From sequence record OQ032512.1: 64,000 nt of DNA; one strand, given 5' to 3'. The translations under genes were made by a program, and so were the position numbers. Source of the DNA: Acinetobacter phage nACB2. Below the pieces are notes generated by a model. That model ran no database searches and was not told the DNA's origin. It saw only the letters and a list, made by a program, of their open reading frames with translations. Each line of letters starts with the position of its first letter. The stretch's first letter is position 1. Shown here piece after piece: positions 7,268-64,000 of this stretch.

Positions 7268-7966
7268 ATGCATATCTCAGCTAAATTGAATGCTATGGAA
7301 AAACGAACAATGAGTCAAGTGGACTCTTCAATTGAAGCTATGCGCCAAATATGTTACGCTATAGATAACAATATGGCTTCAGACCTTGTATTGAAAGACA
7401 AAAATATTTCCCTTTTTCGCTGGGTGAATGAAGGCGGAGAAAGTAAGGTCATGAAAATGCTGGGCGATGATAAGATACAGGTTGGTAATGTATTTTCTAC
7501 GCGGTCTAGAGTTATTGTACACGGCGTGAATTGTATGGGTGTAATGGGTGCAGGTATAGCTGCACAGATACGTAGAAACTTTCCAAAAGCACATAGTGAA
7601 TACATTAAGTTTATCAACGAGTGTCGTATTAAACAAGAGTCTCCGTTGGGTAAAGCTCAGTTTGTTGATGTCGGTGGCGGAAATTACATTGTTAACGCCT
7701 TTACCCAAGAGAAAACAGCTAAAAAACAAGGAGATGTGGCCATCTCTTACAGCGCAATATTAATGTGTATGGAAGAGATTAAAGAGACCTGCTACTGTCT
7801 AGGTATTGACCGAATCGCTATGCCTAAAATTGGTTCTGATTTAGGTGGCGGAGATTGGAATATTATACGTTCAATCGTCAACGCTGTTTTTAATGATAGT
7901 CGCGTAGAGGTTACAGTATATGTTCTGCCGTCTACCTTTTTGAAGAATACAGGCACTAAGTTTTAA
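7268..7966 (+). CDS. Macro-domain protein (ADP-ribose binding/hydrolase family)
   Basis: VIVHGVNCMGVMGAGIAAQI matches the macro-domain nucleotide-binding motif (VNAAN...GGGV.GAI). Confidence 0.6.
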   Translation: MHISAKLNAMEKRTMSQVDSSIEAMRQICYAIDNNMASDLVLKDKNISLFRWVNEGGESKVMKMLGDDKIQVGNVFSTRSRVIVHGVNCMGVMGAGIAAQIRRNFPKAHSEYIKFINECRIKQESPLGKAQFVDVGGGNYIVNAFTQEKTAKKQGDVAISYSAILMCMEEIKETCYCLGIDRIAMPKIGSDLGGGDWNIIRSIVNAVFNDSRVEVTVYVLPSTFLKNTGTKF

Positions 7967-9036: not shown

Positions 9037-10149
9037 ATGCAACCGCCTATGTTTATTACAGGACTAACAATTAATCAGACTGTTGGACGCGCTATCACCT
9101 CTATTATGCGTATGGGTAAAGAAATTGAAACTCGAAACGGTACAGCCAAATTTCTAAATGATATCACTTTGGAAATTCAAAACCCACGCGAGCGCCACCT
9201 TTCTCTAACTGGACGCAAAAGTAACATCTTCCAATTGATGGCTGAATCTTTTTGGGTTATGGCTGGACAAGATCAAGTTACAGGATTTCTAGAATTTTAT
9301 CTGCCTCGTGCTACAGATTATTCTGATGACGGCGCTCATTGGCACGGAGCTTATGGCCCACGTATATATGATCATGGTCAGATGGATGACTTGATTGAGA
9401 CCTTCCGTTCCGAAGGTAAAAATACACGCCGTGCTATTTTGATGATCGCTAACCCAATGCAAGATAATCTAACGACTATTCAACGCTTGTATGGCGAAGG
9501 TCATAAACCAAAAGACATTCCATGTAACCGCGAAATTCATTTTTATGTTACGGACAATAAGTTGAATTGTAAAGTTATTCAGCGTTCCGGCGATATGATT
9601 TTCGGTACTGGTTCAATCAATCCGTTTGAATTCACCTTCTTACAAGAAATCATCTATCAGCGTCTGTTGAAGTTACAAGGTTTTGAAGACCTAGAATTGG
9701 GTGTATACCGCTGGCACGTTACAAATGCTCATATCTATTCAAATTACTATCTTCAAGCTGAAGATGTAATGAAACACTTCGATGACGATAAAGAGCACGT
9801 TGAAGGTACTTTGCCTGTAGCTTATCCATTTACTAAAGAAATGTTTGCTCATAAGTTGAGTTCCCTGAACGAAATCATCGCTTGTGATAACGTAGAGCAT
9901 CTACGCGCTCTCGTCAACCATTACCCATTTGGTAAGTTCAATGAAATTATTGAATTGTATTATGTTCTAATCAAAGCATATACTTTGGGTAAAAAGATTA
10001 AAGAATTGCTTCCTGATCAGAAATTAGTCTTGAATATCTCTAGTATTCCAGATTCTTTAGCAGCTGCTATCGAAGGCTCAGCCTTCAAAAACTTTGATAT
10101 TAACTATGATACAGAAAGCGTATCTTTCCATCTTGTGGAGACAAAATAA
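9037..10149 (+). CDS. Thymidylate-synthase-family pyrimidine hydroxymethylase (dUMP/dCMP hydroxymethylase-like) with a C-terminal extension
   Basis: RRAILMIANP, PCNREIHFYV and IQRSGDMIFG correspond to the TS motifs RRxIxxxWNP, PCHxxxQFYV and QRSxD. His-to-Asn after the catalytic Cys as in T4 gp42. Confidence 0.7.
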   Translation: MQPPMFITGLTINQTVGRAITSIMRMGKEIETRNGTAKFLNDITLEIQNPRERHLSLTGRKSNIFQLMAESFWVMAGQDQVTGFLEFYLPRATDYSDDGAHWHGAYGPRIYDHGQMDDLIETFRSEGKNTRRAILMIANPMQDNLTTIQRLYGEGHKPKDIPCNREIHFYVTDNKLNCKVIQRSGDMIFGTGSINPFEFTFLQEIIYQRLLKLQGFEDLELGVYRWHVTNAHIYSNYYLQAEDVMKHFDDDKEHVEGTLPVAYPFTKEMFAHKLSSLNEIIACDNVEHLRALVNHYPFGKFNEIIELYYVLIKAYTLGKKIKELLPDQKLVLNISSIPDSLAAAIEGSAFKNFDINYDTESVSFHLVETK

Positions 10150-11321
10150 TGGGTCAACTCATCGTTCTATGCGGTGAACGCGGTGTGGGGAAAGATTTCC
10201 TCACATCAGCTGTAGCTGAACAAATGGCTAAATCTGGTATTAACGTCACACGTCTTTCTTTTAGTGATGAAGTGCGTCGCGTGGCATACGTGTTGTTCCC
10301 ATTTCTAAAGAATGTTTTGAATGACAATAAGAATGACCCAATTATCGGCAACTTAGACAATCCTAAAGAGTTTTCTTGGCGAGATATCATTAAGATGATA
10401 GGAAAGGTCTGTCGAGACGTCGATAGCTCTTATTTCGCCAAACGTTGGTCTGAGAATCAATCTCATCTAGTTCTAGAAAGTCCGTCAAATGATTTATTCT
10501 TCATCACGGATATGCGCACTCAAGATGAATACGATCTATTACGCAAAACAGCTCATACATTTGATAGTATTTTGTTTGTAAAAATTGAATCCGAAACAGG
10601 TTTACCTCCGGATGATTTTGAAAAGTGGACGCGCGAATTTAGTGATTACGACGTTCTGTTTAAGAATCTTCGTGATGAAAAATCTGTGGCTGATTTTATT
10701 AGCGCCTTGAATCTTAATGTTGGGATGCCTACGCGTCTAAACAAAAAGATGCTGAATACAATGTTAGAAATTCAGAATCGCAACAACGCACTCTATCTAG
10801 GAACAACAGACTGGCGTCAAAAGGCTGATCTACACAAATACTGCGCTGCCGCTGAGCGCGAGTTCTCTGAATTTCTAGATGAGATCACTACAGAGTGGGC
10901 TTGGTGGAAGAAAGGTGAACAACAATTTGATGTAAACAAAGCCGTTGTGGAATTTTGTGACTACATCTGCTTTAAGATGTCTGTACTATTGTTGAAATAT
11001 CCAGATTTTCAAGGCGTAAACGATGATGCTTACTTTGAACCGCGCGAAAGTATTAAAAACGTGGGGTTCGCCATTTGGTACGAGACCATCAAAACCAAGG
11101 GTATGTCTTATCTTCAGTATACGCCGTATGTAGCAATGGACTTCCAACGTCTAATGGAAGAAATTAATATCACACTTGATTATTTTAATATTACAGCAGA
11201 ACAGTTTTATAATACTATGTTGCAGGTTCTGGAACGTAATTCAGAACGCGCAGAAAAAATCTCTCAGGGCTTATTAGTAAATAAAGCAGCTGAAAATGAA
11301 ATCACTACGGTAGAGGAATAA
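10149..11321 (+). CDS. Fusion of dNMP kinase (T4 gp1-like) with an all-alpha NTP pyrophosphatase (MazG/gp56-like)
   Basis: N-terminus LIVLCGERGVGKDF resembles T4 gp1 MKLIFLSGVKRSGKDT. C-terminus EFSEFLDEI...VVEFCDYICFKM fits the MazG E-x-x-E / E-x-x-D motif. Confidence 0.6.
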   Translation: MGQLIVLCGERGVGKDFLTSAVAEQMAKSGINVTRLSFSDEVRRVAYVLFPFLKNVLNDNKNDPIIGNLDNPKEFSWRDIIKMIGKVCRDVDSSYFAKRWSENQSHLVLESPSNDLFFITDMRTQDEYDLLRKTAHTFDSILFVKIESETGLPPDDFEKWTREFSDYDVLFKNLRDEKSVADFISALNLNVGMPTRLNKKMLNTMLEIQNRNNALYLGTTDWRQKADLHKYCAAAEREFSEFLDEITTEWAWWKKGEQQFDVNKAVVEFCDYICFKMSVLLLKYPDFQGVNDDAYFEPRESIKNVGFAIWYETIKTKGMSYLQYTPYVAMDFQRLMEEINITLDYFNITAEQFYNTMLQVLERNSERAEKISQGLLVNKAAENEITTVEE

Positions 11322-11323
11322 AC

Positions 11324-12403
11324 ATGTCGTCATTAGCATCACGCCTTATCAAAGCAGCTCCAAAATCAAAAGCATGCATCGTGAACCAAACCGATATTGG
11401 TGAAAAGACCATGTTGGCTAAATACATTATTCCTCTTATGAACCTGATGTTTAGCGGTTCATTCAACGGCGGTCTTTGCTTTGGTATTCATCAGCTTGTA
11501 GGTGACTCGCGTACCTTTAAAACCAACATGGCGGTAATGATGGCCAAAGGTTATATGGATCATAATAAAGATTATGACCCAAATGACTTAGAAAAGCAGC
11601 CTGTTTTAGTTGTATTCGACTCTGAATTTGCAATCCGTCCGACATTGGAACAGTTTGGTATTCCACCTGAGCAAGTCGTATACATTCCATTTGAAAATCT
11701 GGAAGAATTGAAAGAAACACTCACTCAGATTATCCAAGACGTCAAACGCGGTGAAAAGGTATTCTTCCTAATTGATTCAATCTCTCAGGTTGCTTCTATT
11801 AAAGAAGTTGCTGACGCATTGAAAGGTGACGTGAAGGTAGATATGACGCGCGCCAAAGAAATGAACTCTTTGTTCCGTATCATCACTCCTATGTTAGCAA
11901 TTCGCGATCTTCCTCTTGTTGCTATTAACAGCTTCTATGAAGACAATGCTAATCAGTATGCAGACCCAATTATTAAAGGCGGTAAACAGAACTTCCTTTC
12001 ATCCGATATTATTTGGTTTGTTTCTCGTGCCCAAGATAAAGATGATGATGGTTTGAAAGGTTGGTTCTTCAACTATAAAGCCCTGAAACACCGTTTTGTG
12101 AAAGAGAAGTCAGTATTCAAACTACACGTGACATTCGATGGTGGTATTGATTGGGCTTCGGGTTTGATTGAATTAGGCGTTGAATCTAAACTGATCAAAC
12201 AGGCTGGTGCGTGGTATGAATTGGCTGATGAATTAAAAACGCCTAATCTCAGCAAAAAGTTCCAACGCAAGCAAATTGTGAACAAGGGTGAATCTGGTTT
12301 CCTTGAAGCACTTTTAGCGTCACCTAAATTTCATGAATTCTGTGAAGACAAATACCGCCTTGAAAATGGTGAGATGGTATCTGAAGATTTAGTTGAAGCG
12401 TAA
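11324..12403 (+). CDS. uvsX: UvsX recombinase (RecA family)
   Basis: SRLIKA..., LVVFDSEF, GEKVFFLIDSI and MTRAKEMNSLFRIITP align with T4 UvsX. Confidence 0.85.
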   Translation: MSSLASRLIKAAPKSKACIVNQTDIGEKTMLAKYIIPLMNLMFSGSFNGGLCFGIHQLVGDSRTFKTNMAVMMAKGYMDHNKDYDPNDLEKQPVLVVFDSEFAIRPTLEQFGIPPEQVVYIPFENLEELKETLTQIIQDVKRGEKVFFLIDSISQVASIKEVADALKGDVKVDMTRAKEMNSLFRIITPMLAIRDLPLVAINSFYEDNANQYADPIIKGGKQNFLSSDIIWFVSRAQDKDDDGLKGWFFNYKALKHRFVKEKSVFKLHVTFDGGIDWASGLIELGVESKLIKQAGAWYELADELKTPNLSKKFQRKQIVNKGESGFLEALLASPKFHEFCEDKYRLENGEMVSEDLVEA

Positions 12404-32902: not shown

Positions 32903-33229
32903 TCAAATAATATTTTCTCGAATGAACAATCTTGCGAAATTATGTTTCTGGAGATGTTTGGTTAAATCTGTTAGGAATGTAAATTTTATTAGACTTTCCT
33001 CTGTCTTGAAACCATTAGCGCACCATATCTTGAGTTCATACGCATCACCCTTTCTTAGAGATATGATGTATTGTTTCTCGCTCTTAGTGTAACTAACCAT
33101 TACAAAGTTACCATGCACTTCAGCTTGGCATTCTTCAATGTTCTCCACTTCAAATGAGTCTGTCATCAATTTGCTTATTTTGACCTGTACCGTATTTTCA
33201 AGATCAATATTCATAAAACTTCTACCCAT
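32903..33229 (-). CDS. Hypothetical protein
   Basis: Protein-like composition. Preferred over the overlapping + ORF 32841..33092. Confidence 0.4.
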   Translation of the reverse strand: MGRSFMNIDLENTVQVKISKLMTDSFEVENIEECQAEVHGNFVMVSYTKSEKQYIISLRKGDAYELKIWCANGFKTEESLIKFTFLTDLTKHLQKHNFARLFIRENII

Positions 33230-33495
33230 TCGTTATTGAATTTCTTTTGTATTTTACAAATGTATTTCGTATCTAACATAGATGGCGTTGAATCATAAAG
33301 AAATAATGTGTTTGAAGTACAACGATATGCTTGATTATCCACATAAAAAAAATGGTATCTGGATGAGTTTAACGGTTTGTGGATATCCCCTTCTAAAATC
33401 AGAACATCATTTTTGTATACTTCAAACTTCATATTGTCTTGTTTAGTGCACCCTAGTAGAGAACAAACCAAAACAACTAAAAATAGATATTTCAT
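33211..33495 (-). CDS. Lipoprotein (signal MKYLFLVVLVCSLLGC)
   Basis: Lipobox LLGC. Start reset to the ATG preceded by GCGGAGAA; the track's MRRTLM is the SD region translated. Confidence 0.5.
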   Translation of the reverse strand: MKYLFLVVLVCSLLGCTKQDNMKFEVYKNDVLILEGDIHKPLNSSRYHFFYVDNQAYRCTSNTLFLYDSTPSMLDTKYICKIQKKFNNEWVEVL

Positions 33496-33968
33496 TAAAG
33501 TTCTCCGCATGACGCTTCAATTATTCTATCGATCACTTGACGACGGCGCGAATTAAACGGCGTAATTGTTTTTTGAAATGACTCCAAGATTACTTTTACA
33601 TCCTTATTGTTGAGGCTCTCTATGAAATCTTTGTCCAAAAACATTTCGCATCTTGCCCAAGTTCCTTCTTCACCTTCAACGTAATACTTTGGATTTGAAA
33701 GATTGCGGGAAAGTAATCTGGCTTCACCTTCCGCCAATTCTAAAACAATGTACCCATCCTGAATGAATGTAATTATCTCATGAGAGGTGTAGAACTCGTT
33801 GTATGTTACGTCACACTGAAAAGCTACGCATGCTTGTTTTCCGTTTAGAACGTCTCTCAATTCCATAGAATCGTCTGTGTTAAGACGAGCTATGCCAATT
33901 TTACAATTCAATGAATCATCTAGTGTCATTAAGACGCCATCAAGGCTTGTTCTAGGTATTCCGTACAT
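33495..33968 (-). CDS. Hypothetical protein
   Basis: ORF only. Confidence 0.4.
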   Translation of the reverse strand: MYGIPRTSLDGVLMTLDDSLNCKIGIARLNTDDSMELRDVLNGKQACVAFQCDVTYNEFYTSHEIITFIQDGYIVLELAEGEARLLSRNLSNPKYYVEGEEGTWARCEMFLDKDFIESLNNKDVKVILESFQKTITPFNSRRRQVIDRIIEASCGEL

Positions 33969-41135: not shown

Positions 41136-42615
41136 CTAGAATAGGGAGTCAAGGCTGAACGATGTCGGAGCCTTTGCCTCCCAATTTATTGCTGTTAAAA
41201 AGTTAGTCAAAGGCGAAATGAAGCACTTATTGAATGCTGTTTCTTTATCAATAAACTGATCAAGTTTGAACTCCTTCGGCAATTGATCATCATATGATAT
41301 TACTTCCATACCGAAAGGCGAACCCTTCCGTAATGGTAACACAAAATATTTATTCCCGCTACGAAGTGGCATGATATGTGTCACTTCCAACCGTTTCAAT
41401 AGATTGTTATGGTTCACTGCGCCTTTAACGTGATAAGGTGTACCCTTTACGTAATTACCGCTACTATCTAGATAGTCTTCAATGTTGTTGATATTTTGAG
41501 CAGCGCCGTACTCATTAATATCTCGATCCTTTTTGAAGTCTGTTTCACAAGCGTCAACAAACTGATGCATCTCAGTCATTCGATCATTCAACGCAAATTC
41601 ATAACACTTCTTCATCCAATCTCGACAGAACATTGGGTAGTTTGATTTACGCGCTTCTAAGCCAACAATCTTCAGCTTAGGAGACGCGAATCGAACGCCT
41701 TCATTATCTGTTAATAGCATAGCGTATCTTTTCTTAGTAGTAAAGATGGCAACTGTAGAAATCGCTTCTCGCTTAAAGAAAAGAGCATTGATTGGGCAGT
41801 TATATGAAGCAGCTAGTTCTTCAGCCCATTGGATGAATAGTGGTTCAAGAACGTCTTTAGCGAGTTCATCAAGTTTGTCAGTTTTAGCTTCAACAGACAA
41901 CTTATCCCAACCTTCGGCTTTCACCACTTCTTTAAATTCAACGTACACAGAGTCTGTATCACCGTAGAAACAGTGATCACCTGATAGACCGTATTTGTTA
42001 TTGATCCATTCGTTCAAGCGGAACATGATATGACGCGTTGAACATTGTCCAGCTGTAGTAATTGCTTCTGCAATACGAATATCAAAGTGGTCAGCAAAGT
42101 TTTCATTCGCAATCGCGCCGTAACCAGCGTTGGCAGCAATTTTATGCGAGTGTTGGTTTGAATCGCCGTTCTGAATGATTGTTTCCCATTCATCCTTCTG
42201 CTTATAGAACCCTGCGTCCTTCTCTAGACATTCATCAAGATATTTTTTCTTGATAGATTCTAAAGAGCGTTCATCATTCTTCATTTGACGTTTAATCGCA
42301 GAACGCGTGTCGTACAAGTCTTTGAATACGCGACGTAACAGAGATGGACGCTCAATCTTGAACATGGCTAAGTTTGGAGCCATACAAACTTTAAGGCGCT
42401 TGAGTACTTGGAAATCATATGGGCGTTCAAAATATACATCCCAAATGCCTTGACGAGCACGGAAGCGTTCAGCGTACAAACGTGTATATTTGTCTTGTTG
42501 GTCTTCAGGTAAAGATTCCAATTCTTTTGCTAGTGCATCTAGAATCTGTTCTGTAATAGCCCAAGGAATCAAGGTCTCAACGCCCATATTGAACTGTTGC
42601 GCCATGTGTGGATAT
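41136..42615 (-). CDS. 43: DNA polymerase gp43, exon 2 (motif A YP onward, motif C YGDTDS, C-terminus)
   Basis: YPHMAQQFNMGVETL aligns with T4 gp43 YPSIIRQVNISPETI. YGDTDSVYV present. The first 57 aa of the 549-aa track ORF are intron sequence. Confidence 0.8.
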
Positions 42616-43788
42616 CCTTTATGTTCAGATGAGTTCGTGATTCTCATCCCGGAATTGTATCCAGCTTGTATTCGCATACAAGAGCAGACTATATCATCAC
42701 CCACGTTATACGTTTGGTACGCTGTTGTAACTAGCGCAGATGAGCTATACTCACCGTGTCTCCCGTTTCCAATTAAGCCATACATTTAGGCACCACACTT
42801 GGCTGTACTATGTCTTGCGACTGTCTAGTCGTTGAACCTTTCAGAACTTCTTTGATCTTTAGTGTATACAGTTCTACATCTAAACCTTTTAATTTCAATG
42901 GCTTGACGTAGTTAGATGCTAGTGTTCCGTTTTGGTTGAAGATTGTTTTGCCTTTCGCTTGAGCCTTCAGATAGTAAGCAAACAATTGTTCGTCAGACCA
43001 TCCAATGATTTCAAGTTTCTTGCGTTCAAGACTTTCTTTGAATTTTTGCTTTCCATCTTCTGATTGCATCGGGTTAGATTGTTCAAACCCTTTACCATCT
43101 AGATGATGTTTCAATTCGCCAGAAATATATCTTGGATCATTCTTTTCAGTCATAAATGTATTACCGTCTGAGTCTTTAACAACAACTCGTCCAGTCATGT
43201 ATTCTTGACTACGTTTAGTGATGCTTTTAGCAGTTTCTTCATCAGCCCCAAAGAACTTTTTACCGTTCATATCGGGTCTAGAAACACCGCGTTTAGTCTC
43301 ACTAATCTTCAACTTCACATCTTCGCGCTTAGATGGATTGTTCTCACCTGAGTTCATTACGCTAGCATTCAATCTAGCTTCAACGGTATACTCAGCGCCA
43401 TCTCTAGTTGTTGTCATTAAGTGATACGCAAATCCCATACCTCGAGTTTTTGCGCCTAACATCAATAATCTATGCGCTTCGACGTGTTCTAAAATAGATA
43501 AATCTATCAGATTCCACTTAGCATTTCTGTATTCATAAAAATCGCAGACTGGAAGAATATGATGACACTCTGTTACGCCATAACCTTTAGCAGACAAAAT
43601 GAATTCCACGTACTGTTCTAGTACAGCGTGGTCACCATTCTTGTAAGTCTGTTTCAAAGCATCTAGCATTTGTAAAGCGTTCATATAATTCACCATTCTG
43701 ACTTGGCTGCTGATTGTCTCAGTGAGAGTTCCCAGCAATTAAAGAGATTTTCATTGTATTATTACTAATACAAGCCCCTTATCAGTTA
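42616..43788 (-). mobile_element. Group I self-splicing intron (1173 nt) carrying an HNH homing-endonuclease ORF in P6
   Basis: P1 is exon GCCCU paired with IGS GGGGC, with U.G at the 5' splice site. P2 is UUGUAUUA-GUAA-UAAUACAA. Elements P (AAUUGCUGGGAA), Q (AAUCAGCAG), R (GACUA) and S (GAUAUAGUC, + strand 42687-42695). P9 is cuuguau-GCGA-auacaag. Terminal G at 42616. Splicing joins ...DANAL|YPHM... in frame. Confidence 0.75.
42773..43696 (-). CDS. HNH homing endonuclease (intron-encoded)
   Basis: ECHHILPVCDFYEYRNAKWNLIDLSILEHVEAHRLL. ATG MVNYMNALQ immediately follows element Q. Confidence 0.7.
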   Translation of the reverse strand: MVNYMNALQMLDALKQTYKNGDHAVLEQYVEFILSAKGYGVTECHHILPVCDFYEYRNAKWNLIDLSILEHVEAHRLLMLGAKTRGMGFAYHLMTTTRDGAEYTVEARLNASVMNSGENNPSKREDVKLKISETKRGVSRPDMNGKKFFGADEETAKSITKRSQEYMTGRVVVKDSDGNTFMTEKNDPRYISGELKHHLDGKGFEQSNPMQSEDGKQKFKESLERKKLEIIGWSDEQLFAYYLKAQAKGKTIFNQNGTLASNYVKPLKLKGLDVELYTLKIKEVLKGSTTRQSQDIVQPSVVPKCMA

Positions 43789-45053
43789 AGGGCATTAGCA
43801 TCCACTGAAACCACGTCTTCGTACCGTCCTGGCTTCAAATCTTTAACGTATCCGCCAGCGTAATCAGGCTTAGAATTCACGCGCGCACGAATTTCAGAAT
43901 ATTCTTTGCCGCGTGCTCCATAGCCGTACATCAAGTATTGCCAAGGAAGTACTGTCGCATTTGTGTCGTCTGGATTACAATGGAATAAGAAAGCCAGCGT
44001 ATATGCCAGTTGTAACATCTTAGTCTTTTCGGCAATGCGCTTAACTAAGTTCACGTCATGAATGTTGTATGAGATGTAGTTCTGGAAGTCTTTGTAATAG
44101 AATTCAGTCAGGTTTTTATAATCGCTATGGTCAACCTTTTCTTCACCCAAGAAGTGTTTTGCGGCTGTGTTTAGCTTTTTGTTATCCAATTCTACAAAGG
44201 CGTGTTTGTCAACGATGTCTTTCAAATCGAGGTTGCTGATACCTGCAATGTTGAAAGTCACTTCTTCGCCATAAGGTCCTTGGAAGGTACGCTTGCGCAC
44301 GTAATCTAGTGGAGAAATGCGTTTGAGCTGATCTCGTCCAAGAAGGGCGTCAATACGGTTACAGAAATATGCAATATCAAACGTGTCGCTGTTCCACCCT
44401 GAAATATAGTTGTATTCGGCATCTGCGAAATGATCAACAAAATCTGCAAGTAAGTCTAGCTCAGAGTCATAACCAACATATTCAATTTGTTCTGGCGTGA
44501 TATGTTTAGCTACTTCAGGCGGTAACTTTTCTACATCGAAAGTACCAATATATTCGCCCTTGAACGTCTCAAGACCAAATACAAAGAATTTATTTGTAAA
44601 TGTGTCATAAACCGTGATGGCTGTGACTTCGTATTGAGCTAGAGCAGGCTCAGGGAATGGGCCACTAAAGATAACGCCTTTTGCGTCTTTATAACCAGAC
44701 TCAACCTCAATATCCAGAAGCGCGCCGCGGATATGTTTCATATCAAACGTAATCTGCTTTTCAGGATAACGTTCAGCCACATATTGAGCTAGAGGGTTGT
44801 CAATGCCGTAGATTTTGTAGTTAGGAACGTTCTTCATTTCATCTAACCATTGATCCATGGCATAGATGTTATCAAAAGTCACAGCCTGTAAGGGTAGACC
44901 ACCTAGAGAACGGTGTTCAGATTCTTGATCTTGAGATGGTACAAATAACTTGGGCTTGAAATGAATTTCTGAAGTACCACGTACGCCATTTTCTACGTAG
45001 CGCTCAATGATTTTTTCTTTATGCTTGGTTAGTGAAGTGTAAAAACGAGACAT
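43789..45053 (-). CDS. 43: DNA polymerase gp43, exon 1 (3'-5' exonuclease domain through the start of motif A)
   Basis: Exo I FDIEV. Ends ...VSVDANAL, equivalent to T4 ...MSFDLTSL. Confidence 0.8.
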
Positions 45054-54997: not shown

Positions 54998-55192
54998 TTA
55001 TACTCTGTAGCGTTCTTTCAATATCACACGCACTAGATTATTTTGCGTTGTATGAATTACTCTTATTACAACATACATTCTAGACCGCATGATCACGTTT
55101 TCACCAATTCTAGGAACAAACGCAGCACTTTGATTCTCTTCTCTAATATCTGAATCTTCGTCTTCATAACGTATCATGCTACGCCAACCCAA
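54998..55192 (-). CDS. Small hypothetical protein
   Basis: ORF only. Confidence 0.3.
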   Translation of the reverse strand: MGWRSMIRYEDEDSDIREENQSAAFVPRIGENVIMRSRMYVVIRVIHTTQNNLVRVILKERYRV

Positions 55193-57021: not shown

Positions 57022-57175
57022 TATCAGTAAACTCCGATGTTTCTACTTTAGACGGTTTATATTTGAATTCATCAATATTAATGTGAGGAATCTCTTTGCG
57101 CTCGCATGAAATGCTTTCTTGAATGAAGACCTGATTGAAAAGGTCTTCCGTTCTGGGGTCGAATGATAACTGCAT

Positions 57176-57823
57176 TTATTTTGTCTGCAGAAAAATCAAT
57201 TTACCTTGAATTAAATGTAGGTAATTTGAAATAGAAAAAAGCTCGTTGTTGTTTCGATCAATTTCAACCCGCAGCATCTCATTACGCGCCTGTATATCAC
57301 TGATGCGCTGGTTAGCATCACTGATAAAGTTAATCACTTCATCAAGTTCTGGCATATCTGTATTACGCGCAGTTTGCTCTTGTGATGCAATTGGTTCAAT
57401 AACTTCTTTGACTTCCTGAACTTCTGGGCCAAGTTCTTCATCAATGTGTTCTTTAAAGTCTTCAGGAACTTTTATGTCTTCAACAACGCGAAAAGAGTCT
57501 AGAACAGATACGTCACAGGTGCGACCAATTTCAAAGTTGGCGTTAGGTGTCATCTTTAAACCGTGTGTATACTTTCCCATTAGCCCTAGACTTTTACGTC
57601 CATCTGCACTTGTCGTTAACATAGTATTGGCAAATGAACCACCAAGTTTCTTAACGCTCTTCTTCAAGGCTGCTAATGCCGAAGGAGAGATAAATACATG
57701 GTCAGATGAAATTACAATACCCATCTGACCTGTTCCGCTCGGGTTATTTAGAAAATGACCGTTTTCAATATCAGATTTAGCTCCCACGCAACCGCGATAT
57801 TCGAAGATTTCTACTGTACGCAT
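57176..57823 (-). CDS. Hypothetical protein with C-terminal coiled coil
   Basis: ORF only. Confidence 0.4.
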   Translation of the reverse strand: MRTVEIFEYRGCVGAKSDIENGHFLNNPSGTGQMGIVISSDHVFISPSALAALKKSVKKLGGSFANTMLTTSADGRKSLGLMGKYTHGLKMTPNANFEIGRTCDVSVLDSFRVVEDIKVPEDFKEHIDEELGPEVQEVKEVIEPIASQEQTARNTDMPELDEVINFISDANQRISDIQARNEMLRVEIDRNNNELFSISNYLHLIQGKLIFLQTK

Positions 57824-57824
57824 T

Positions 57825-57868
57825 AAAAAGCCCCTAGGCAGTTATTATATGTCAGGGGCTATTATAAT
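57825..57868. terminator. Imperfect hairpin AGCCCCT-N19-AGGGGCT
   Basis: Weak. Confidence 0.35.
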
Positions 57869-57892
57869 GTATTTTATGTTATTCCATAAAAA

Positions 57893-59377
57893 TCAAATAT
57901 CAACCTTAATGGTTTTGATTGTTTGTCCCTCTTCCCTGTATATATCTAAACGCTCGGCAGCCCATTCCATTGTTCTATTTCTACGCCCGTCAAACTTCAT
58001 TTCATCTATCAAGTCGTAAATGAACGCAATGTCTTTAGAGTCGTGAATACGCAACATACGCCCTATTGATTGCTGAATTCTGATATTTGACTTACTTGGG
58101 AATGCAAATACTAAATTGTGCAGCTTCTTGATAGAGATACCTGTAGACGTTGTTCCATATGACGCTAAGAGAATGACGTCATCATGCGTTTCCATGTAGC
58201 GCTTGATTTCTTCTCTTTCTTCAACTGAAATTTCGCCGTGAATAACAAAGGGCTTCAAACCTGCTTTGATCATCTCTTCTTTAACAACTTCTAGGTGTGT
58301 CTCAATATTGTTAAACAAAAACAATGAGTTACCTTTGAGTTTGCGCCCTAGATTTACTAGAATTTTATTTCTTGGTTCATATCCACATATGATTTTAGTT
58401 TCCTTCTCCAAAGTACAGTCATTACGCCATTTGCGTCTTTGTTCTGTTGGATAAGACATTACGATCATATTAACAACTGTTTTAGTGGCTAAACCTCTGT
58501 CTTGCAGTTGTTTTGTAGTTACTAGGCGCTTAGAATCTCCAAAAATCTTACAAACTCTGATCTTATGATTTGGGTCATTTCTTCTGAGTGTACCTGTTAA
58601 GCCTACGCGCTGCCAACAGTTGATACAAGATGAGCTGATATAATCTAGGCTTTCTGAGCTGAATGTATGAGCTTCATCCCCCATTAAGAAATTGAACGGT
58701 TGGAAAAATTCTCTGTCTTGATTCTTTAGAGTCTGCCACGTACAAATTACAATTCTTTTTCTTGTATATGGACTTACGCCGTCACCAGCTACGTGAACAA
58801 ACGCATCTGTATCCCAGCCGTTGAGTTGAGAATAGTCCTTGAAGTCTTTATATAACTGTTGAGTCAACTGAAGGGTTGGGACAACAATAAGAATCTTAGC
58901 CTCATCAGCCATCATATCGAGCCAAAATCTGGATTTCATGTATTGCATCAAAGATTTACCAGCTGATGTAGCTGCCAGAGCAAGGTATCTCGTATACTTC
59001 ACGCTGTAGTAAAGCGCTTCAACTTGGTAGTCGTAAGGCTTGATGGGATTGCCGCCAGATGAAACATTGAGATTATCAACCCATTCCTGAATGTCTTCTC
59101 GGCTGATATCTCTGACTAGATTCTTCAATAACGGTTCGATGTCTACTTTGTCTTCGTAATCTTTACAAAGTTTCAGCATCATGGAAAGCAAGCCTGAAGG
59201 GAATGTACCATTCTTTTTATTGAACATACGTACAGTTCCATCCCACTTTGTCCAAGCATTGCGCTCGAAAGTGGGGTCTTGATATCTCAAAGTATCATAA
59301 GCTGCTTGCCATAGGCTATCATTGTCCGTTTCCAAGAACAAGGTACTAGCGTTCACTACACCAACAAAAGCAGCCAT
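57893..59377 (-). CDS. uvsW: UvsW-like SF2 DNA helicase
   Basis: Walker A ATSAGKS, DEAH MGDEAHT, motif VI QSIGRMLR. Confidence 0.7.
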   Translation of the reverse strand: MAAFVGVVNASTLFLETDNDSLWQAAYDTLRYQDPTFERNAWTKWDGTVRMFNKKNGTFPSGLLSMMLKLCKDYEDKVDIEPLLKNLVRDISREDIQEWVDNLNVSSGGNPIKPYDYQVEALYYSVKYTRYLALAATSAGKSLMQYMKSRFWLDMMADEAKILIVVPTLQLTQQLYKDFKDYSQLNGWDTDAFVHVAGDGVSPYTRKRIVICTWQTLKNQDREFFQPFNFLMGDEAHTFSSESLDYISSSCINCWQRVGLTGTLRRNDPNHKIRVCKIFGDSKRLVTTKQLQDRGLATKTVVNMIVMSYPTEQRRKWRNDCTLEKETKIICGYEPRNKILVNLGRKLKGNSLFLFNNIETHLEVVKEEMIKAGLKPFVIHGEISVEEREEIKRYMETHDDVILLASYGTTSTGISIKKLHNLVFAFPSKSNIRIQQSIGRMLRIHDSKDIAFIYDLIDEMKFDGRRNRTMEWAAERLDIYREEGQTIKTIKVDI

Positions 59378-59413
59378 AAGAATCTTCCATAGATATCAAT
59401 TATGTACTTACCA

Positions 59414-59719
59414 TCATAATTCCCAATATAATATAGCTTTCTTAATCACGTTCCCGTGACATTGTTTCGGGCTACAGAAGCATTGTAGGTTCAAATCGCC
59501 TTCCGAGCTTATACCTTTAAGGCGTTTCAAATCATTTATGATTTTTCTATTTCCTTGGTTCACTTGATTTTTAAGCCATTCTTCGTATTGATCAATGACT
59601 CTTTTACGACTAACTTCGCCATTTAGCGGAAATGGATTCCCCAGAATAGTTGGACGTCCAATATAAACTGTCGTTCCAGAATACACTTGGGTATCACTTT
59701 TGTTTATTATGCGTATCAT
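59414..59719 (-). CDS. Small conserved phage protein (GNPF...CxC..CH motifs)
   Basis: ILGNPFPL...CFCSPKQCHG. Confidence 0.4.
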   Translation of the reverse strand: MIRIINKSDTQVYSGTTVYIGRPTILGNPFPLNGEVSRKRVIDQYEEWLKNQVNQGNRKIINDLKRLKGISSEGDLNLQCFCSPKQCHGNVIKKAILYWEL

Positions 59720-60039
59720 AATTCAGACTCATCTAAAGTTGAAAGAATCATCTGCTGACTTTGTTTCTGTCCTTTACGTCCATTTGTAATAGCGTTCTGC
59801 TTAGCTACGGAATGTCTAAATGCGCGTCGGCGGTCTTTTTCAGCCTGTTTTGCCGCTCGCTTTTCAGCCTGTCGAGTAGTGCGTCCATCTGGAGACTGAG
59901 ATAAGAAATTTGGTTCAAATCCAGTTTCCGGAATACTAATTTTTCTAGCTGGAGACGCTTCAACAGCTTGCATTTGACCAGCTACAGCCATAAGCATACC
60001 AATATTTGAAAGTCTTTTACCAATCATGACATAATCCAC
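59716..60039 (-). CDS. Hypothetical basic protein
   Basis: ORF only. Confidence 0.35.
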   Translation of the reverse strand: MDYVMIGKRLSNIGMLMAVAGQMQAVEASPARKISIPETGFEPNFLSQSPDGRTTRQAEKRAAKQAEKDRRRAFRHSVAKQNAITNGRKGQKQSQQMILSTLDESEL

Positions 60040-60532
60040 ATAATTTAATACGAGTGTTCATTAAAATAATACCAAGATTATTAGCGCCGCAACCTGTTTT
60101 ATGGTCTACGCCCCAATAATTATCTTTCCACCAGTTACCTTCTATCAATGTCTTATCGTTAGTTGAAATCAACTTTTCTAACAAGTTTGGATTGTTTTCA
60201 AATTTCTTCAAAACTATAGATTGCATATACTTCAATCTGTTAGGTATGAATGAACTATCAAGTCGATGGTCTTTACCCTTTAGATCAAATTGTTCTTTAG
60301 CGAAGACTTTAGATTTTTTAGGAGACATTTTAGATACAAGACGTTTTGTCTCCATATCCAAGAACTTACAAGACTGATAAGCAGCTTCTGAACTAAAAAA
60401 ATTCAATATGAGCAATGATTATAGGCTTGTCCAATACCTGCATATTACTCAGATATTTGTTATCAGCATTGTCGTAGAAATTTCTGATTTCAGAATGTTC
60501 TTCTTTATACCAATCTTGAGATGTACTTTTCA
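60017..60532 (-). pseudogene. NADAR-domain gene disrupted by two 1-nt frame changes at short homopolymers (YbiA-like N-glycosidase/ADP-ribose family)
   Basis: Three pieces in two frames together recreate a full YbiA-like N-terminus. The C-terminal 132-aa ORF carries the NADAR core DNYWG...G.G.N.LG..LM..R. Confidence 0.55.
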
Positions 60533-61640
60533 TAAAGTCTCCAGTTATAACTCAACTGCGGTAACCAATTTGAAACCTACTCTAGACGATTGGCCAGACC
60601 ACTACCATCAATCTCAAACTGTTTTCACAATATTATGGTTTGCTCACCTTGTTCTGACTAGCGCCTGAAAGGTTATAACCTCTGTCTTCATCAGACATTA
60701 ACTAGCTAGTTGAACCACCTCACTTTTTCTGTCACGCCCCTAATGAACATAACCCCAGTAATCTCGGAATGAACCTTACAAACATCAATCTATCACCGCA
60801 GATAAATTATAAAACCGAATGACTCAACTCTATATAAATCAAATAAAAAGGAGTCAAAAGACTCCTAGCGTTTAAGATAGAATTGTGTGGCGGCGTGGTA
60901 GCTATCAACCTCTAGCTTTTCTTTACCTTTAACGCAAATAACGTTACCACTATGATTTTCCAAAACCATTTCATCGCTTGTTCTAAAGAATGAACCTCTT
61001 TCATATGTTTATCTCATGATCAGATTATTTATAAATTCCATTTCAACGTCTGTAATAAACAGCATCTAAATGGTCTATTTTTATACAGCTGTACTACCGT
61101 GTGAGACCTATAATTTAGTAATGGCTCTTGTCTAATATATACAAGGTTTCACCCCTTTCTCACATTCTTCCCATAAATCACAAGGTGATAATTCAGGAAA
61201 TTAAGAATGACACTTGACCAAGTGTATCTTCAAATGAATGAAGACTGATACTAGGAACCCAGATTTCAATTAAGGAAATCTCAACGCCTGAATGTTCAGC
61301 TGACGTTGCTCACACTGTATTACTACAGAATCAAGATAAAATCTCAACCTTATCATCATATAATGTTTAACGTGATCTGATGATCCAATACAATTATAGG
61401 GGTCAATCTGAACTTCAATTGTAAAGGCTTCCAAACACGGTAGTCTATCAGATTGATATTAGACAAATGGGCTTAATGAAGGAGAAAAATCTCAAGATGC
61501 CATTTGAATCAATTCAAATTTTTGAATTTTACCATTCTGACCACTTTCTCTCAAGTTTAGACCTTGAGGAAAACTAGACTGAACTTTTACGTCCAAGAAT
61601 CCTTGTCATGTGTATAGGTGAAAACATAAACAAGGCAACA

Positions 61641-61670
61641 AGCAAGGCTGATTATAAATCCTTTGTTTTT
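61641..61670 (-). promoter_or_regulatory. Early promoter on the - strand (CTTTAC-N18-TATAAT) reading into the ORF-free region
   Basis: + strand reads attata-N18-gtaaag. Confidence 0.5.
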
Positions 61671-61759
61671 AAAAGTAAAGTATTTTTATTATTTGATTTT
61701 TATCTATATGATGGTCTTTACAGTAAAATAGCTGTATCATTCAAACAAGGAGCAATGAT

Positions 61760-62032
61760 ATGCCTATTATATTAGGATTGTTAATTGTCATAGGTGTGCT
61801 ATCGTACCTGTACTACGTTGAGCGTAAACGTAACCAATCTTACATTTCTCAAGATGAATCTGAGTTGCGTGGTTACGTTTATGCAACTGAACAACTTGAT
61901 GAACATTTCACAATTATGAAATTTGAAGAATTGAAATGTATGTCTGAAGTTTCTGTAGCTGGATATTCAAGATTCCACGAAGGTATCCGTAGAAAGCTAA
62001 AAGAAGTAAACGTTGAACATTTAGAGACATAA
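61760..62032 (+). CDS. Small membrane protein
   Basis: N-terminal TM helix IILGLLIVIGVLSYLYY. Confidence 0.45.
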   Translation: MPIILGLLIVIGVLSYLYYVERKRNQSYISQDESELRGYVYATEQLDEHFTIMKFEELKCMSEVSVAGYSRFHEGIRRKLKEVNVEHLET

Positions 62033-62075
62033 TCCTTTATTTCAAACCTCAAATACATTAAAATAGGAGATTAGG

Positions 62076-62486
62076 GTGGATACTATTGTAATTTTTACAG
62101 CTATAATGCTGATAATGATGTCACCTATGGGAATATTATGGGTAGTGGCTTCTGACCATAAAAGAATAGTTGACGCTGAAAGTTTTAGACAACTATTACT
62201 TCGTGAAGACTTTGAAGATACAAAACATCTATTGTTTGGGCGACTAGGGTGGGCTGAAGCTTTAGAAGTTGATGAAGAAAATATGCTTTTCAAATACAAG
62301 TTTGAAGCTGACGGCGTTACTCTTTTTTCAAATCAAGATAAAGATGGATATGCTCTTTTAACAATAGATGCAGATAATCTTAGTTGGCAATCTACAAAGC
62401 AAACGAAAAGATCCATTTTACAATTTCACACTTATTTGCATTTTCGCAATTTCATTCAACAATTAAAGGCAAAAGATGAACATTAA
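62076..62486 (+). CDS. Membrane-anchored hypothetical protein
   Basis: N-terminal TM helix. Confidence 0.4.
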   Translation: MDTIVIFTAIMLIMMSPMGILWVVASDHKRIVDAESFRQLLLREDFEDTKHLLFGRLGWAEALEVDEENMLFKYKFEADGVTLFSNQDKDGYALLTIDADNLSWQSTKQTKRSILQFHTYLHFRNFIQQLKAKDEH

Positions 62487-63036
62487 ACCTTTACAGTATC
62501 CGCAACAATTTCAAGAATTATTGACGCCGTTATCTATTCTTGAAATATGGACTGACGGCGGTGTGACAAACAACGGCAAAGAGAATTCATTTGGAGGGTG
62601 GTCATACGTAGCCATTAAACCAAATGAAAAGCCGAAAATTGGTTATTCTGAACACGTTCCTGGTATTGTTACCAACAACCGTTGTGAAATCATGGGCGTT
62701 ATGGCTGCAATAGTTGAATTCGCTAATCCAGAGTGTAAACTCATTGTGCATAGCGATTCTCAGTATGTAGTTAAGACGGTGAATGAATGGCGTCACGGCT
62801 GGAAGCGTAAAAACCCTGCTTTAATCAAGAATAAAGAACTCTTTGAACAACTATTTGATCTTGTGGATAAAAATCACGTAGAATTGAAGTGGGTGAAGGG
62901 TCATTCTACATGCGTTGGAAACAATATCGCAGACTTTTGGGCAACTAAGGCTATGCACAAACAAAAACCTTCTGACGCTCATCTAGAAAAGGCTGATATT
63001 ATCTACTACGAAAGCGTGGAAGGGTTTTCAATATGA
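62476..63036 (+). CDS. RNase HI-type ribonuclease H
   Basis: IWTDGG...E...HSDSQYVV...KWVKGH...N..AD is the RNase H DEDD pattern. Confidence 0.7.
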   Translation: MNIKPLQYPQQFQELLTPLSILEIWTDGGVTNNGKENSFGGWSYVAIKPNEKPKIGYSEHVPGIVTNNRCEIMGVMAAIVEFANPECKLIVHSDSQYVVKTVNEWRHGWKRKNPALIKNKELFEQLFDLVDKNHVELKWVKGHSTCVGNNIADFWATKAMHKQKPSDAHLEKADIIYYESVEGFSI

Positions 63037-63623
63037 GCAAACAAAATTACGTTGACAATGAAAGACTCTCAGACGACATATTAGACTGGGTTGGAAAATA
63101 TAATGACGCAATGTCTGCAGGTCTTCCTAAACCTAGAATACCAGAACGCGTTGGAAGAGATATATTGTTAATTGCTGTCAACCTTGCGCGCCTTCCTAAA
63201 TTCAACCGTTACACTTGGTTGGAAGAAATGGTTGGCGATGCTGTAGAGAATACCTTAAAATACCTACATAATTTTAATGGCGGCGTATCAACAAGAATCG
63301 GTAAACCTAATGCTTTCAGCTGGATCACTATTTCTATGGAACGCGTGTTCTATGATCGCATAGAAAGTGAGAACAGACAACTCTATTATCGCAACAAGAT
63401 GGGCGTTGAAGCATTTGATGAAATGGGAAGCGAAATTGAGAATGGCGATCTAGGTTCTGCTGATACAACTCAGAAAATTTCAAATGATATGCGAGAACGC
63501 GTTGGAAGCTATGAACAACAACAACGCAAAAGAAAAGAGAAAGAACGCCAGAAACAGGATGAAAAGAAACAATCTGTTCCTACTGGTACAATTTCTCTAT
63601 CAGAACTGTTTTTGTCGGAGTGA
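63033..63623 (+). CDS. 55: Late-transcription sigma factor gp55
   Basis: NYVDNERLSDDILDW and YLHNFNG align with T4 gp55 NYVNNKELLQAIIDW and GLHNFDE. Confidence 0.7.
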   Translation: MSKQNYVDNERLSDDILDWVGKYNDAMSAGLPKPRIPERVGRDILLIAVNLARLPKFNRYTWLEEMVGDAVENTLKYLHNFNGGVSTRIGKPNAFSWITISMERVFYDRIESENRQLYYRNKMGVEAFDEMGSEIENGDLGSADTTQKISNDMRERVGSYEQQQRKRKEKERQKQDEKKQSVPTGTISLSELFLSE

Positions 63624-63953: not shown

Positions 63954-64000
63954 ACTATAGGACGAAGGGGCGATCTAATCCATCAATAAATATAGAACGC

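What the first reader, a model, noticed from the sequence alone, without database searches (positions are those of the whole stretch)
60017..60532. NADAR-domain gene broken by two compensating 1-nt frame changes at homopolymers
The 132-aa ORF carries the NADAR core (LISTNDKTLIEGNWWKDNYWGVDHKTGCGANNLGIILMNTR, against E. coli YbiA LVEHTENDAYWGDGGHGKGKNRLGYLLMELR) but lacks the N-terminus. The missing ~57 residues are present upstream in two other reading segments. MKSTSQDWYKEEHSEIR is in the same frame as the main ORF; NFYDNADNKYLSNMQVLDKPIIIAHIEFF is shifted, with frame switches at an AAA-to-AA site and a T7 run. Concatenated, they match the YbiA N-terminus in length and motifs (NFY...SN...EHYFQAQKF versus NFF..EAAYQSCKF). 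The gene is therefore either decaying, mis-sequenced at homopolymers, or recoded. NADAR enzymes reverse DarT1-type guanine ADP-ribosylation of DNA, so its integrity matters for anti-DarTG function. It pairs with the Macro-domain gene at 7268..7966, since DarG-type macro domains reverse thymine ADP-ribosylation.
Basis: partly seen in the sequence, partly recalled or inferred. Interest (0 to 1): 0.6.

Follow-up and report, generated by a model that had tools for sequence, protein, structure and literature searches.

The report
Phage NADAR gene broken by one extra T
A phage gene for a NADAR enzyme (a family that strips ADP-ribose off DNA to defeat a bacterial defence) is cut in two by one extra T in a run of Ts; every known relative has the gene intact, so this is an ordinary recent lesion or consensus error, not a recoding device.

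Summary
The window is positions 1-64000 of Acinetobacter phage nACB2 (OQ032512). On the minus strand a 171-codon YbiA-type NADAR gene is split by ONE frame change, not two. ORF-A (60533..60393, 46 aa, published gp79) is a single continuous frame ending GAA TTT TTT TAG. ORF-B (published gp78) continues one base further on. Skipping one T of the T7 run (60401..60395) gives a protein matching Pfam NADAR over 2-162 of 163 positions.

All 9 related metagenome contigs and 2 distant Acinetobacter phages have the gene intact. The two nearest carry T6, the others TTCTTT or TTTTTC. Clade dN/dS is 0.05-0.07. The window differs from its nearest intact relative by only 3 substitutions plus the extra T, so the break is very recent or artefactual.

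The catalytic Glu49/Lys56 lie just after the break, so the annotated 112-aa product lacks them. UUU-UAG allows perfect +1 re-pairing, but there is no upstream SD-like sequence, no downstream structure, a U after the stop and no conservation, so programmed recoding is unlikely.

Two more private 1-nt homopolymer indels lie within 650 bp; one breaks an unannotated 46-aa gene. My split is roughly 55% real mutation, 27% consensus error and 8% useful recoding. Low interest.

The parts
60539..60542 (-). GGAG ribosome-binding site, 5 nt upstream of the NADAR start codon
   Evidence: Read directly from the sequence. Conserved in relatives.
60393..60533 (-). ORF-A: NADAR codons 1-46 (MKSTSQ...AHIEFF) followed by a TAG stop at 60395..60393. 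Published as nACB2 gp79, 'hypothetical'.
   Evidence: One continuous ORF. Aligns to residues 1-46 of intact 171-aa orthologues. Published Table S2 coordinates are 60,393-60,533.
60395..60401 (-). T7 run (GAA TTT TTT T|AG), the only frame-breaking site. It is T6 in the nearest relatives. UUU-UAG allows perfect +1 re-pairing of tRNA-Phe.
60017..60394 (-). NADAR codons 47-171 plus stop, in the +1 frame. Begins SSEAAYQSCKF, with Glu49 at 60388..60386 and Lys56 at 60367..60365, and contains LIEGNWW (Glu131). The published gp78 uses only 60355..60017 (112 aa).
   Evidence: Pfam NADAR. YbiA alignment. WAW11802.1 is an exact match to the 112-aa version.
59716..60027 (-). Downstream 103-aa gene (gp77). 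Its ATG overlaps the NADAR stop (ATGATTGGTAA). No family hit.
59414..59719 (-). DUF4326 gene (gp76). This domain is reported as often fused to NADAR, Macro and SLOG domains in viruses, so it is likely part of the same ADP-ribose-processing module.
   Evidence: Pfam DUF4326 at E 3e-18. PMC9503650. Syntenic in all long relatives.

Best explanation
Phage nACB2 carries a YbiA-type NADAR gene. In all its relatives this gene is an intact 171-codon ORF under strong purifying selection.

By homology the product is an ADP-ribosyl glycohydrolase. Its expected role is to remove ADP-ribose from guanine in phage DNA, as an AdfN-like counter to DarT1-type toxins. It probably works with the neighbouring DUF4326 protein.

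In the sub-lineage leading to nACB2, synonymous changes turned TTC TTT or TTT TTC into an uninterrupted T6 run. In nACB2 itself that run gained one T, giving T7.

I take this to be a genuine, very recent replication-slippage mutation in the sequenced stock. Translation from the ATG at 60533 then stops at UAG after 46 codons. The catalytic Glu49/Lys56 motif and the rest of the domain are out of frame, so the gene is a null or strongly hypomorphic allele.

At most a small fraction of ribosomes would restore the full-length enzyme, by an unprogrammed +1 slip of tRNA-Phe on UUU-UAG. A small fraction of transcripts could do the same by losing one U.

Shown: the anatomy, the uniqueness of the lesion, the selection acting in relatives and the family assignment. 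Inferred: the enzymatic role, that the lesion is real rather than a consensus error, and that any read-through is low.
For: - Single frame change at the T7 run.
- The joined product covers Pfam NADAR positions 2-162 of 163 at 66.8 bits. It also hits phrog_1017 at 1e-29 and E. coli YbiA structure 2B3W at 1.2e-5, with SSEAAYQSCKF aligned to TSEHYFQAQKF and LIEG aligned to LVEH.
- All 9 Logan contigs, from 9 different sequencing runs, are intact, as are phages SH-Ab 15599 and Ab1-TPeters.
- The nearest relatives L005 and L006 have T6. The others have TTCTTT or TTTTTC.
- dN/dS is 0.05-0.07 across the clade. The window differs from L005 by 1 synonymous and 2 nonsynonymous changes, with dS 0.011.
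- No other stop or indel lies downstream of the break.
- The genome was assembled from Illumina MiSeq 2x300 reads at 487x coverage, where consensus errors at 4-7-nt runs are uncommon (PMC10057805). The window coordinates equal the published nACB2 table.
- The window lineage has 9 private substitutions spread evenly over the same 2.2 kb. This is real divergence during which indels could also arise.
- The other 22 genes shared with the relatives are unbroken.
Against: - The raw reads were not available, so a consensus error cannot be excluded.
- Three private 1-nt homopolymer indels (61043 A4 to A3, 60965 T5 to T4, 60401 T6 to T7) fall within 643 bp. None occurs in the other roughly 13 kb compared. 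That pattern also fits a local consensus problem.
- In the same 2.2 kb the sister lineages show 0 private indels against about 14 private substitutions, while the window shows 3 against 9. My one-sided hypergeometric estimate from the counts is about 0.085, which is suggestive but not significant.
- The UUU-UAG site is formally a good +1 slip site, so the allele may not be a complete null.
Confidence: 0.55

Rival explanations
1. Consensus or assembly artefact. The real phage has T6 and an intact 171-aa NADAR. The deposited sequence carries local homopolymer-length errors.
For: - Three window-private homopolymer-length differences, in both directions, cluster within 643 bp. Two of them break genes that are intact and about 98-99% identical in the nearest relatives.
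- The NADAR gene has no other defect, and it is under strong constraint in relatives.
- The phage is predicted to carry hypermodified thymine (PMC13458397). That might disturb library preparation at T/A runs; this is my speculation.
Against: - The data are Illumina MiSeq at 487x. Consensus errors at runs of 4, 5 and 7 nt are unusual for this platform.
- Low-coverage contig ends would affect only a few bases, not 643 bp.
- In the 13.9 kb compared, the other runs (about 148 of length 4, 53 of length 5 and 7 of length 6) show no private frame-breaking length change.
- Private substitutions in the same stretch show genuine divergence.
Confidence: 0.27
2. Functional recoding. The T7 allele still yields biologically useful full-length NADAR. 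This could happen by a +1 ribosomal slip at UUU-UAG (prfB-like P-site slippage at a slow stop) or by transcriptional slippage on the run. Either would make expression low-level or conditional.
For: - The geometry is right. The P-site Phe codon UUU (60398..60396) re-pairs perfectly with UUU one base on (60397..60395). The A-site holds a UAG stop, and the next +1 codon AGU continues the conserved SSEAAYQ.
- The downstream frame is entirely open and unmutated.
Against: - None of the 11 orthologues has a frameshift, so nothing is conserved or programmed.
- There is no SD-like sequence in the 20 nt upstream.
- The 68 nt downstream fold no better than shuffled sequence (z = -0.97).
- The stop is followed by U, which is a good termination context in E. 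coli as I recall.
Confidence: 0.08
3. A two-piece enzyme. The 46-aa ORF-A product and an ORF-B product, re-initiated at the TTG at 60415 or the ATG at 60355, associate to form an active split NADAR.
For: Both ORFs are open. The TTG lies 20 nt before, and the ATG 38 nt after, the ORF-A stop, so termination-reinitiation is geometrically possible.
Against: - Neither internal start has an SD sequence.
- The ATG product (112 aa) lacks Glu49 and Lys56.
- No relative is split.
- The split is too recent to have been shaped by selection.
Confidence: 0.03

Closest known systems
AdfN, the phage-encoded orphan NADAR anti-DarTG1 factors (T4 gp30.3, AdfN-Bas32, AdfN-Bas60; Johannesman et al. 2025, PMC11825919)
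   Same: A stand-alone NADAR domain encoded by a large myovirus among early and DNA-metabolism genes. The expected chemistry is removal of ADP-ribose from guanine in DNA.
   Different: - It is not the gp30.3 type. PF08010 scores 18.7 bits against a cut-off of 36.
- The subfamily-defining residue is Glu (YbiA type), not His.
- Activity has not been tested.
- In this genome the gene is interrupted by a 1-nt insertion.
E. coli YbiA (PDB 2B3W), YbiA family of the NADAR superfamily
   Same: The conserved SE..(Y/F)Q..KF motif, the L(I/V)E strand glutamate and the WG.....G.G.N.LG..LM..R tail all align over residues 15-164. The length is similar: 171 aa against 160 aa for native YbiA (PMC11125620).
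   Different: The match is weak (phmmer E 1.2e-5). This one is phage-borne. It scores below the NCBIfam cut-off for the riboflavin-intermediate N-glycosidase model (41 against 73.7 bits).
Orthologue in Acinetobacter phage SH-Ab 15599 (AXF41454.1, 172 aa) and the 171-aa proteins P0001, P0003, P0005, P0006 and P0008 (plus the 170-aa P0004) from Logan contigs
   Same: Same gene and same synteny (NADAR, small ORF, DUF4326, SF2 helicase). Identity is 46% to SH-Ab 15599 and 88-99% to the Logan proteins.
   Different: All of them are single intact ORFs. The run is T6 or an interrupted run instead of T7.
prfB (RF2) programmed +1 frameshift site, CUU UGA C
   Same: A P-site codon able to re-pair perfectly in the +1 frame, with a stop codon in the A site.
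   Different: There is no upstream SD-like stimulator, U rather than C follows the stop, and the shift is not conserved among orthologues. It is therefore a resemblance only, not a member of that class.
Spontaneous +/-1 frameshift hot spots at A/T runs in T4 rII (classical genetics, cited from memory)
   Same: A one-base gain in a 6-nt A/T run during phage replication that inactivates a non-essential gene.
   Different: Here it is seen as a fixed, or consensus, state in a natural isolate's genome record.

Membership tests
NADAR superfamily (Pfam PF08719) | Profile match above the curated gathering score | tested here: met
   The joined 171-aa product scores 66.8 bits against 35.1, covering profile 2-162/163. 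ORF-B alone scores 60.5 bits.
NADAR superfamily (Pfam PF08719) | Whole domain encoded in one reading frame, giving an expressible intact protein | tested here: not met
   The domain is split at T7 between frames. ORF-A stops after 46 codons.
NADAR superfamily (Pfam PF08719) | Conserved catalytic Glu and phosphate-binding Lys seven residues apart (E88/K95 in E. coli C7 NADAR; PMC11543638) | tested here: met
   E49 and K56 in SSEAAYQSCKF align to YbiA TSEHYFQAQKF. They are invariant in all orthologues. The assignment rests on motif alignment, not on a structure.
YbiA family within NADAR | Glutamate in the last strand (Asp in the BC4488 family, His in gp30.3 phage NADARs; PMC11125620) | tested here: met
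   E131 in TLIEGNWW aligns to the E of YbiA LVEH. By sequence alignment only.
NADAR superfamily | [quoted passage not shown] | tested here: inconclusive
   The AlphaFold2 model built from a 7-sequence shallow alignment had mean pLDDT 38 and is unusable. No fold search was run.
AdfN / anti-DarTG1 NADAR | Hydrolyses guanine-ADP-ribose on DNA and rescues phage from DarTG1 | not testable with these tools
   Needs biochemistry and plaque assays.
T4 gp30.3-type phage NADAR (PF08010) | Profile match above the gathering score | tested here: not met
   18.7 bits against a cut-off of 36.
Programmed +1 ribosomal frameshift (prfB-like) | Slippery P-site codon with +1 re-pairing, and a stop or slow codon in the A site | tested here: met
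   UUU UAG. UUU re-pairs with UUU one base on.
Programmed +1 ribosomal frameshift (prfB-like) | Stimulatory elements (upstream SD-like sequence, poor termination context) | tested here: not met
   No GGAG or AGG-type sequence in the 20 nt upstream. U follows the stop. The downstream fold has z = -0.97.
Programmed +1 ribosomal frameshift (prfB-like) | Frameshift conserved among orthologues | tested here: not met
   0 of 11 orthologues are frameshifted.
Transcriptional-slippage recoding site | Long A/T run (typically 9 or more, as I recall), conserved among orthologues | tested here: not met
   The run is 7 nt. Relatives have 6 nt or interrupted runs.

The most novel reading that the evidence does not exclude
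The T6/T7 run is a functional switch. One version is a mutational on/off (contingency) site that toggles an anti-defence NADAR in the phage population. The other is a +1 recoding site that delivers a small, regulated dose of the enzyme. A private T5 to T4 change in the upstream 46-aa gene would then belong to the same variable locus.
Probability: 0.06. Interest if true: 0.55.

Novelty: new member of a known kind. Interest (0 to 1): 0.15.

Why it matters
Practically, two published 'hypothetical' genes of phage nACB2 (gp78 and gp79) are the halves of one YbiA-type NADAR gene. They should be re-annotated as a frameshifted NADAR, or corrected if the reads show T6.

Biologically, if the lesion is real, nACB2 is a natural NADAR-null or hypomorphic phage sitting beside near-identical intact alleles found in metagenomes. 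Repairing the T7 to T6 would give an isogenic pair for testing whether this phage NADAR counters DarT1-type DNA ADP-ribosylation in Acinetobacter.

It also shows how a synonymous change that completes a homopolymer creates a mutational hazard. The finding does not reveal a new mechanism.

Tried and rejected
- **Two compensating frameshifts:** rejected. ORF-A is one frame, and there is no indel at the AGAAATTTC site in any of the 9 relatives.
- **Close phage genomes:** megablast of the locus against the phage collection found nothing. The source record OQ032512 is not in the collection. Relatives had to be found through proteins.
- **The T7 allele elsewhere:** exact look-ups of the 132-aa, 112-aa and 46-aa products found nothing. 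An exact T7-allele pattern found nothing in JGI metagenomes.
- **More relatives of any allele:** a T-run pattern allowing 0-2 extra bases found nothing in IMG/VR. A degenerate pattern from downstream of the run found nothing in JGI metagenomes, IMG/VR or GTDB genomes. No independent T7 allele and no further relatives turned up.
- **Structure prediction:** pLDDT was 38 from a shallow alignment, so the model was unusable and no fold search was done.
- **Genome-wide sloppy homopolymers:** rejected as far as it could be tested. All 22 other genes shared with L004 and L007 are unbroken. A scan of the whole window with SH-Ab 15599 ORFs found no other split coding gene. That scan was too insensitive to see the NADAR break itself, so small genes could be missed.
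- **Excess of private indels over substitutions as evidence of artefact:** 3:9 in the window against 0:~14 in sister lineages gives a one-sided P of about 0.085, which is not decisive.
- **Downstream RNA structure or upstream SD as frameshift stimulators:** none found.
- **A -1 slip on U UUU UUU:** this leads into the third frame, which is not the NADAR frame, so it was rejected on reading the sequence.

Full report
**What the window is.** ORF coordinates in the window coincide exactly with the published gene table of Acinetobacter halotolerans phage nACB2. Examples are 12,453-13,868, 49,760-51,100, 55,174-57,021, 60,017-60,355, 60,393-60,533 and 62,476-63,036. The 112-aa C-terminal part of the flagged ORF is an exact match to WAW11802.1, 'nACB2_078'. 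The window is therefore nACB2 (OQ032512) positions 1-64000. That genome was sequenced on Illumina MiSeq 2x300 and assembled de novo in Geneious at 487x mean coverage (PMC10057805). The record itself is absent from the searchable phage collection.

**Checking the observation.** On the minus strand there are two ORFs.
- ORF-A runs 60533..60393. It has an ATG preceded by GGAG with a 5-nt spacer and encodes 46 aa: MKSTSQDWYKEEHSEIRNFYDNADNKYLSNMQVLDKPIIIAHIEFF*.
- ORF-B runs 60415..60017, 132 aa from a mechanical TTG.

ORF-A is one uninterrupted frame. The two starts differ by 118 nt, which is 1 mod 3. At AGAAATTTC the window has no indel relative to any relative.

The only break is the T7 run at 60401..60395: GAA TTT TTT TAG in the ORF-A frame, and ...AAT TTT TTT AGT TCA GAA in the ORF-B frame. 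Skipping one T yields a 171-aa protein.
- It matches Pfam NADAR (PF08719) over profile positions 2-162 of 163, at 66.8 bits against a gathering score of 35.1. ORF-B alone covers only 36-162.
- It also matches phrog_1017 at 1e-29.
- It matches the solved E. coli YbiA structure 2B3W at E 1.2e-5 over residues 15-164.

So the NADAR identity and the T7 break are confirmed. The 'two compensating changes' are not.

**Relatives.** A protein search found one 90%-identity cluster. Its full-length members are 170-171 aa and come from nine Logan contigs assembled from nine different sequencing runs: L004-L012, from SRR15237817, SRR22387772, SRR25779720, SRR7685269, DRR623198, SRR33566501, ERR12320368, SRR19631087 and SRR19631088. 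The long contigs are syntenic with the window. The order is RNase H, then the intergenic region, NADAR, a roughly 105-aa ORF, DUF4326, an SF2 helicase and topoisomerase II.

Two more distant Acinetobacter phages also have a single intact ORF that aligns without a gap across the break point. These are SH-Ab 15599 (46% identity) and Ab1-TPeters (38% in the alignment). The local sequences are AHIEFF|SSEAAYQ against KHIPYHSTEAAYQ and AGIEYNSSENAYQ.

The DNA alignment shows the following at the site.
- The window reads GAA TTTTTTT AG.
- Its nearest relatives read GAA/CAA TTTTTT AG (T6). L005 is 99.1% identical over 1 kb and L006 is 98.2% over 2.2 kb.
- Four contigs read TTCTTT and three read TTTTTC.

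The history is therefore an interrupted run, then T6 by a synonymous change, then T7 by a one-base gain in nACB2 only.

**Selection and age.** Nei-Gojobori dN/dS across the clade is 0.05-0.07, with dS up to about 1.1. The gene is thus strongly constrained in relatives. After removing the extra T, the window differs from L005 by one synonymous and two nonsynonymous substitutions (dS 0.011). No other stop or indel lies anywhere in the 516 nt. The lesion is either very young or not real.

**Consequence for the protein.** In NADARs, a Glu and a Lys seven residues apart (E88/K95 in E. coli C7 NADAR) are needed for guanine-ADPr hydrolysis and are conserved across the superfamily. [quoted passage not shown]

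By alignment to YbiA these residues are E49 and K56 in SSEAAYQSCKF, and E131 in LIEGNWW. The protein is therefore YbiA-type, not gp30.3-type; PF08010 scores only 18.7 against a cut-off of 36.

E49 and K56 lie 3 and 10 codons after the break. The ORF-A product lacks them, and so does the published 112-aa gp78. A TTG-initiated ORF-B product would keep them but would lose the N-terminal 46 residues, including the conserved YLSNM motif. Neither internal start has an SD sequence. As written, the gene is a null.

**Could it be recoded?** The site is formally a good +1 slip site. P-site tRNA-Phe on UUU (60398..60396) can re-pair perfectly with UUU (60397..60395), the A site holds UAG, and the next codon AGU continues the conserved sequence. 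However:
- none of the 11 orthologues is frameshifted;
- there is no SD-like sequence in the 20 nt upstream;
- the 68 nt downstream fold no better than shuffles (z = -0.97);
- the base after the stop is U, which from memory is a good termination context in E. coli, unlike the C of prfB.

A -1 slip on the run enters the third frame, not the NADAR frame. Transcriptional slippage would need loss of one U or gain of two. From memory, runs of 7 are well below the 9 or more at which this becomes efficient. Some low, unprogrammed read-through is plausible. A programmed device is not supported.

**Real mutation or artefact?** A comparison of 13.9 kb (window 50,019-63,963) with L004 and L007 shows that all 22 other shared genes are unbroken. 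It also uncovered a second broken gene. A 46-aa ORF (MKEVHSLEQAMKWFLENHSGNVICVKGKEKLEVDSYHAATQFYLKR) is about 98% identical at the DNA level in five relatives and is followed by an intrinsic terminator at 60866..60849. In the window it is split, because TGG-TTTTT-GG there is TGG-TTTT-GG here at 60965..60962. This gene is not annotated in the published table.

A third private change, A4 to A3, lies in the intergenic DNA at about 61043. Polarising with outgroups over 60,008-62,199 gives 9 private substitutions spread evenly and 3 private indels for the window. Its sister lineages show about 14 private substitutions and 0 indels. My one-sided hypergeometric estimate from these counts is about 0.085.

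The cluster of three homopolymer-length changes within 643 bp is mildly suspicious of a local consensus problem. Several points argue the other way:
- Illumina consensus errors at 4-7-nt runs at 487x are uncommon.
- Contig-end effects span only a few bases.
- The same stretch carries genuine private substitutions.
- T4-like phages are classically prone to +/-1 changes at A/T runs in dispensable genes (from memory).
- Runs of 7 or more are strongly depleted in this genome, 2 observed against about 22 expected. This fits such runs being hazardous.

I put a real mutation at about 55%, an artefact at about 27%, useful recoding at about 8% and a split enzyme at about 3%. The reads would settle it.

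**Function and context.** Phage NADARs (AdfN: T4 gp30.3, Bas32, Bas60) remove ADP-ribose from guanine in phage DNA and neutralise DarTG1. The tested ones do not reverse DarT2 thymine modification (PMC11825919; PMC11125620).

Two genes downstream of the NADAR is a DUF4326 protein (Pfam E 3e-18). Iyer et al. report this domain as often fused to NADAR, Macro and SLOG domains in DNA viruses and predict that it processes ribose-linked phosphates (PMC9503650). The gene order NADAR, small ORF, DUF4326 is conserved in all long relatives. These genes probably form a small ADP-ribose-processing module.

The Macro protein at 7268..7966 is real (Pfam E 5e-10). Its best curated match is the macro domain of antitoxin DarG, at E 5e-20 and 72 bits against an equivalog cut-off of 250. 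It also matches M. tuberculosis DarG macrodomain 5m3i at E 1.5e-10. The two genes are 52 kb apart.

**Verdict.** This is a known kind of gene, a phage YbiA-type NADAR, in a broken state caused by a single extra T in a homopolymer. The lesion is unique to this record and is not compensated by anything. The finding is useful for annotation: gp78 and gp79 are two halves of one gene. It also offers a natural null allele for anti-DarTG experiments. It is not mechanistically new.

Noticed in passing
window 60865..61004 (minus strand); T4 run at 60965..60962: A second private homopolymer frameshift. A 46-aa gene is intact and about 98% identical in five relatives (L004, L006, L007, L008, L012) and absent from L009 and L010. 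In the window it is split into 30-aa and 34-aa ORFs by a T5 to T4 change. It is followed by an intrinsic terminator at 60866..60849. It is not annotated in the published nACB2 table and has no Pfam or PHROG hit.
   Followed up: partly
window ~61043 (minus strand GTTG-AAA-TGG): A third window-private 1-nt homopolymer change, A4 to A3. It lies in the intergenic DNA about 40 nt upstream of the small gene's ATG. All three private indels fall within 643 bp.
   Followed up: partly
window 41136..45053 (minus strand): The family-B DNA polymerase is encoded in separate ORFs. The exonuclease part is 43782..45053 (423 aa) and the polymerase part is 41136..42785 (549 aa). A 321-aa ORF of no known family (42773..43738) lies between them. 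The same three-part arrangement is annotated in SH-Ab 15599. A split polymerase or an inserted element is possible.
   Followed up: partly
window 33345..33352 (T8 on the minus strand), inside ORF 33211..33510: This is the only other A/T run of 7 or more in the window. It sits in-frame in an intact 99-aa ORF whose N-terminus looks like a lipoprotein signal (MKYLFLVVLVCSLLGC). It is a potential slippage-prone site.
   Followed up: no
whole window: Long homopolymers are strongly depleted. There are 2 runs of 7 or more A/T against about 22 expected from base composition (GC 38.9%).
   Followed up: partly
window 7268..7966 (+): The Macro-domain protein has antitoxin DarG (macro domain only) as its best curated match. 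The score of 72 bits is far below the equivalog cut-off of 250. It also hits PDB DarG macrodomains 5m3i and 5m31. The SH-Ab 15599 orthologue is annotated Tk.4-like.
   Followed up: partly
window 59414..59719 (minus strand): A DUF4326 protein lies two genes downstream of the NADAR. This domain is reported as fused to or associated with NADAR, Macro and SLOG domains in viruses (PMC9503650). The order NADAR, small ORF, DUF4326, helicase is conserved in relatives.
   Followed up: partly
window ~9037..12403 (+): A recent paper predicts that nACB2, like SH-Ab 15599, replaces thymine with a diaminopropane-hypermodified base, dapT (PMC13458397). The window holds a thymidylate-synthase-like gene at 9037..10149, whose syntenic counterpart in SH-Ab 15599 is annotated as dUMP hydroxymethyltransferase, together with its neighbours. 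Modified T could affect DarT2-type thymine ADP-ribosylation and, speculatively, sequencing at T runs.
   Followed up: no
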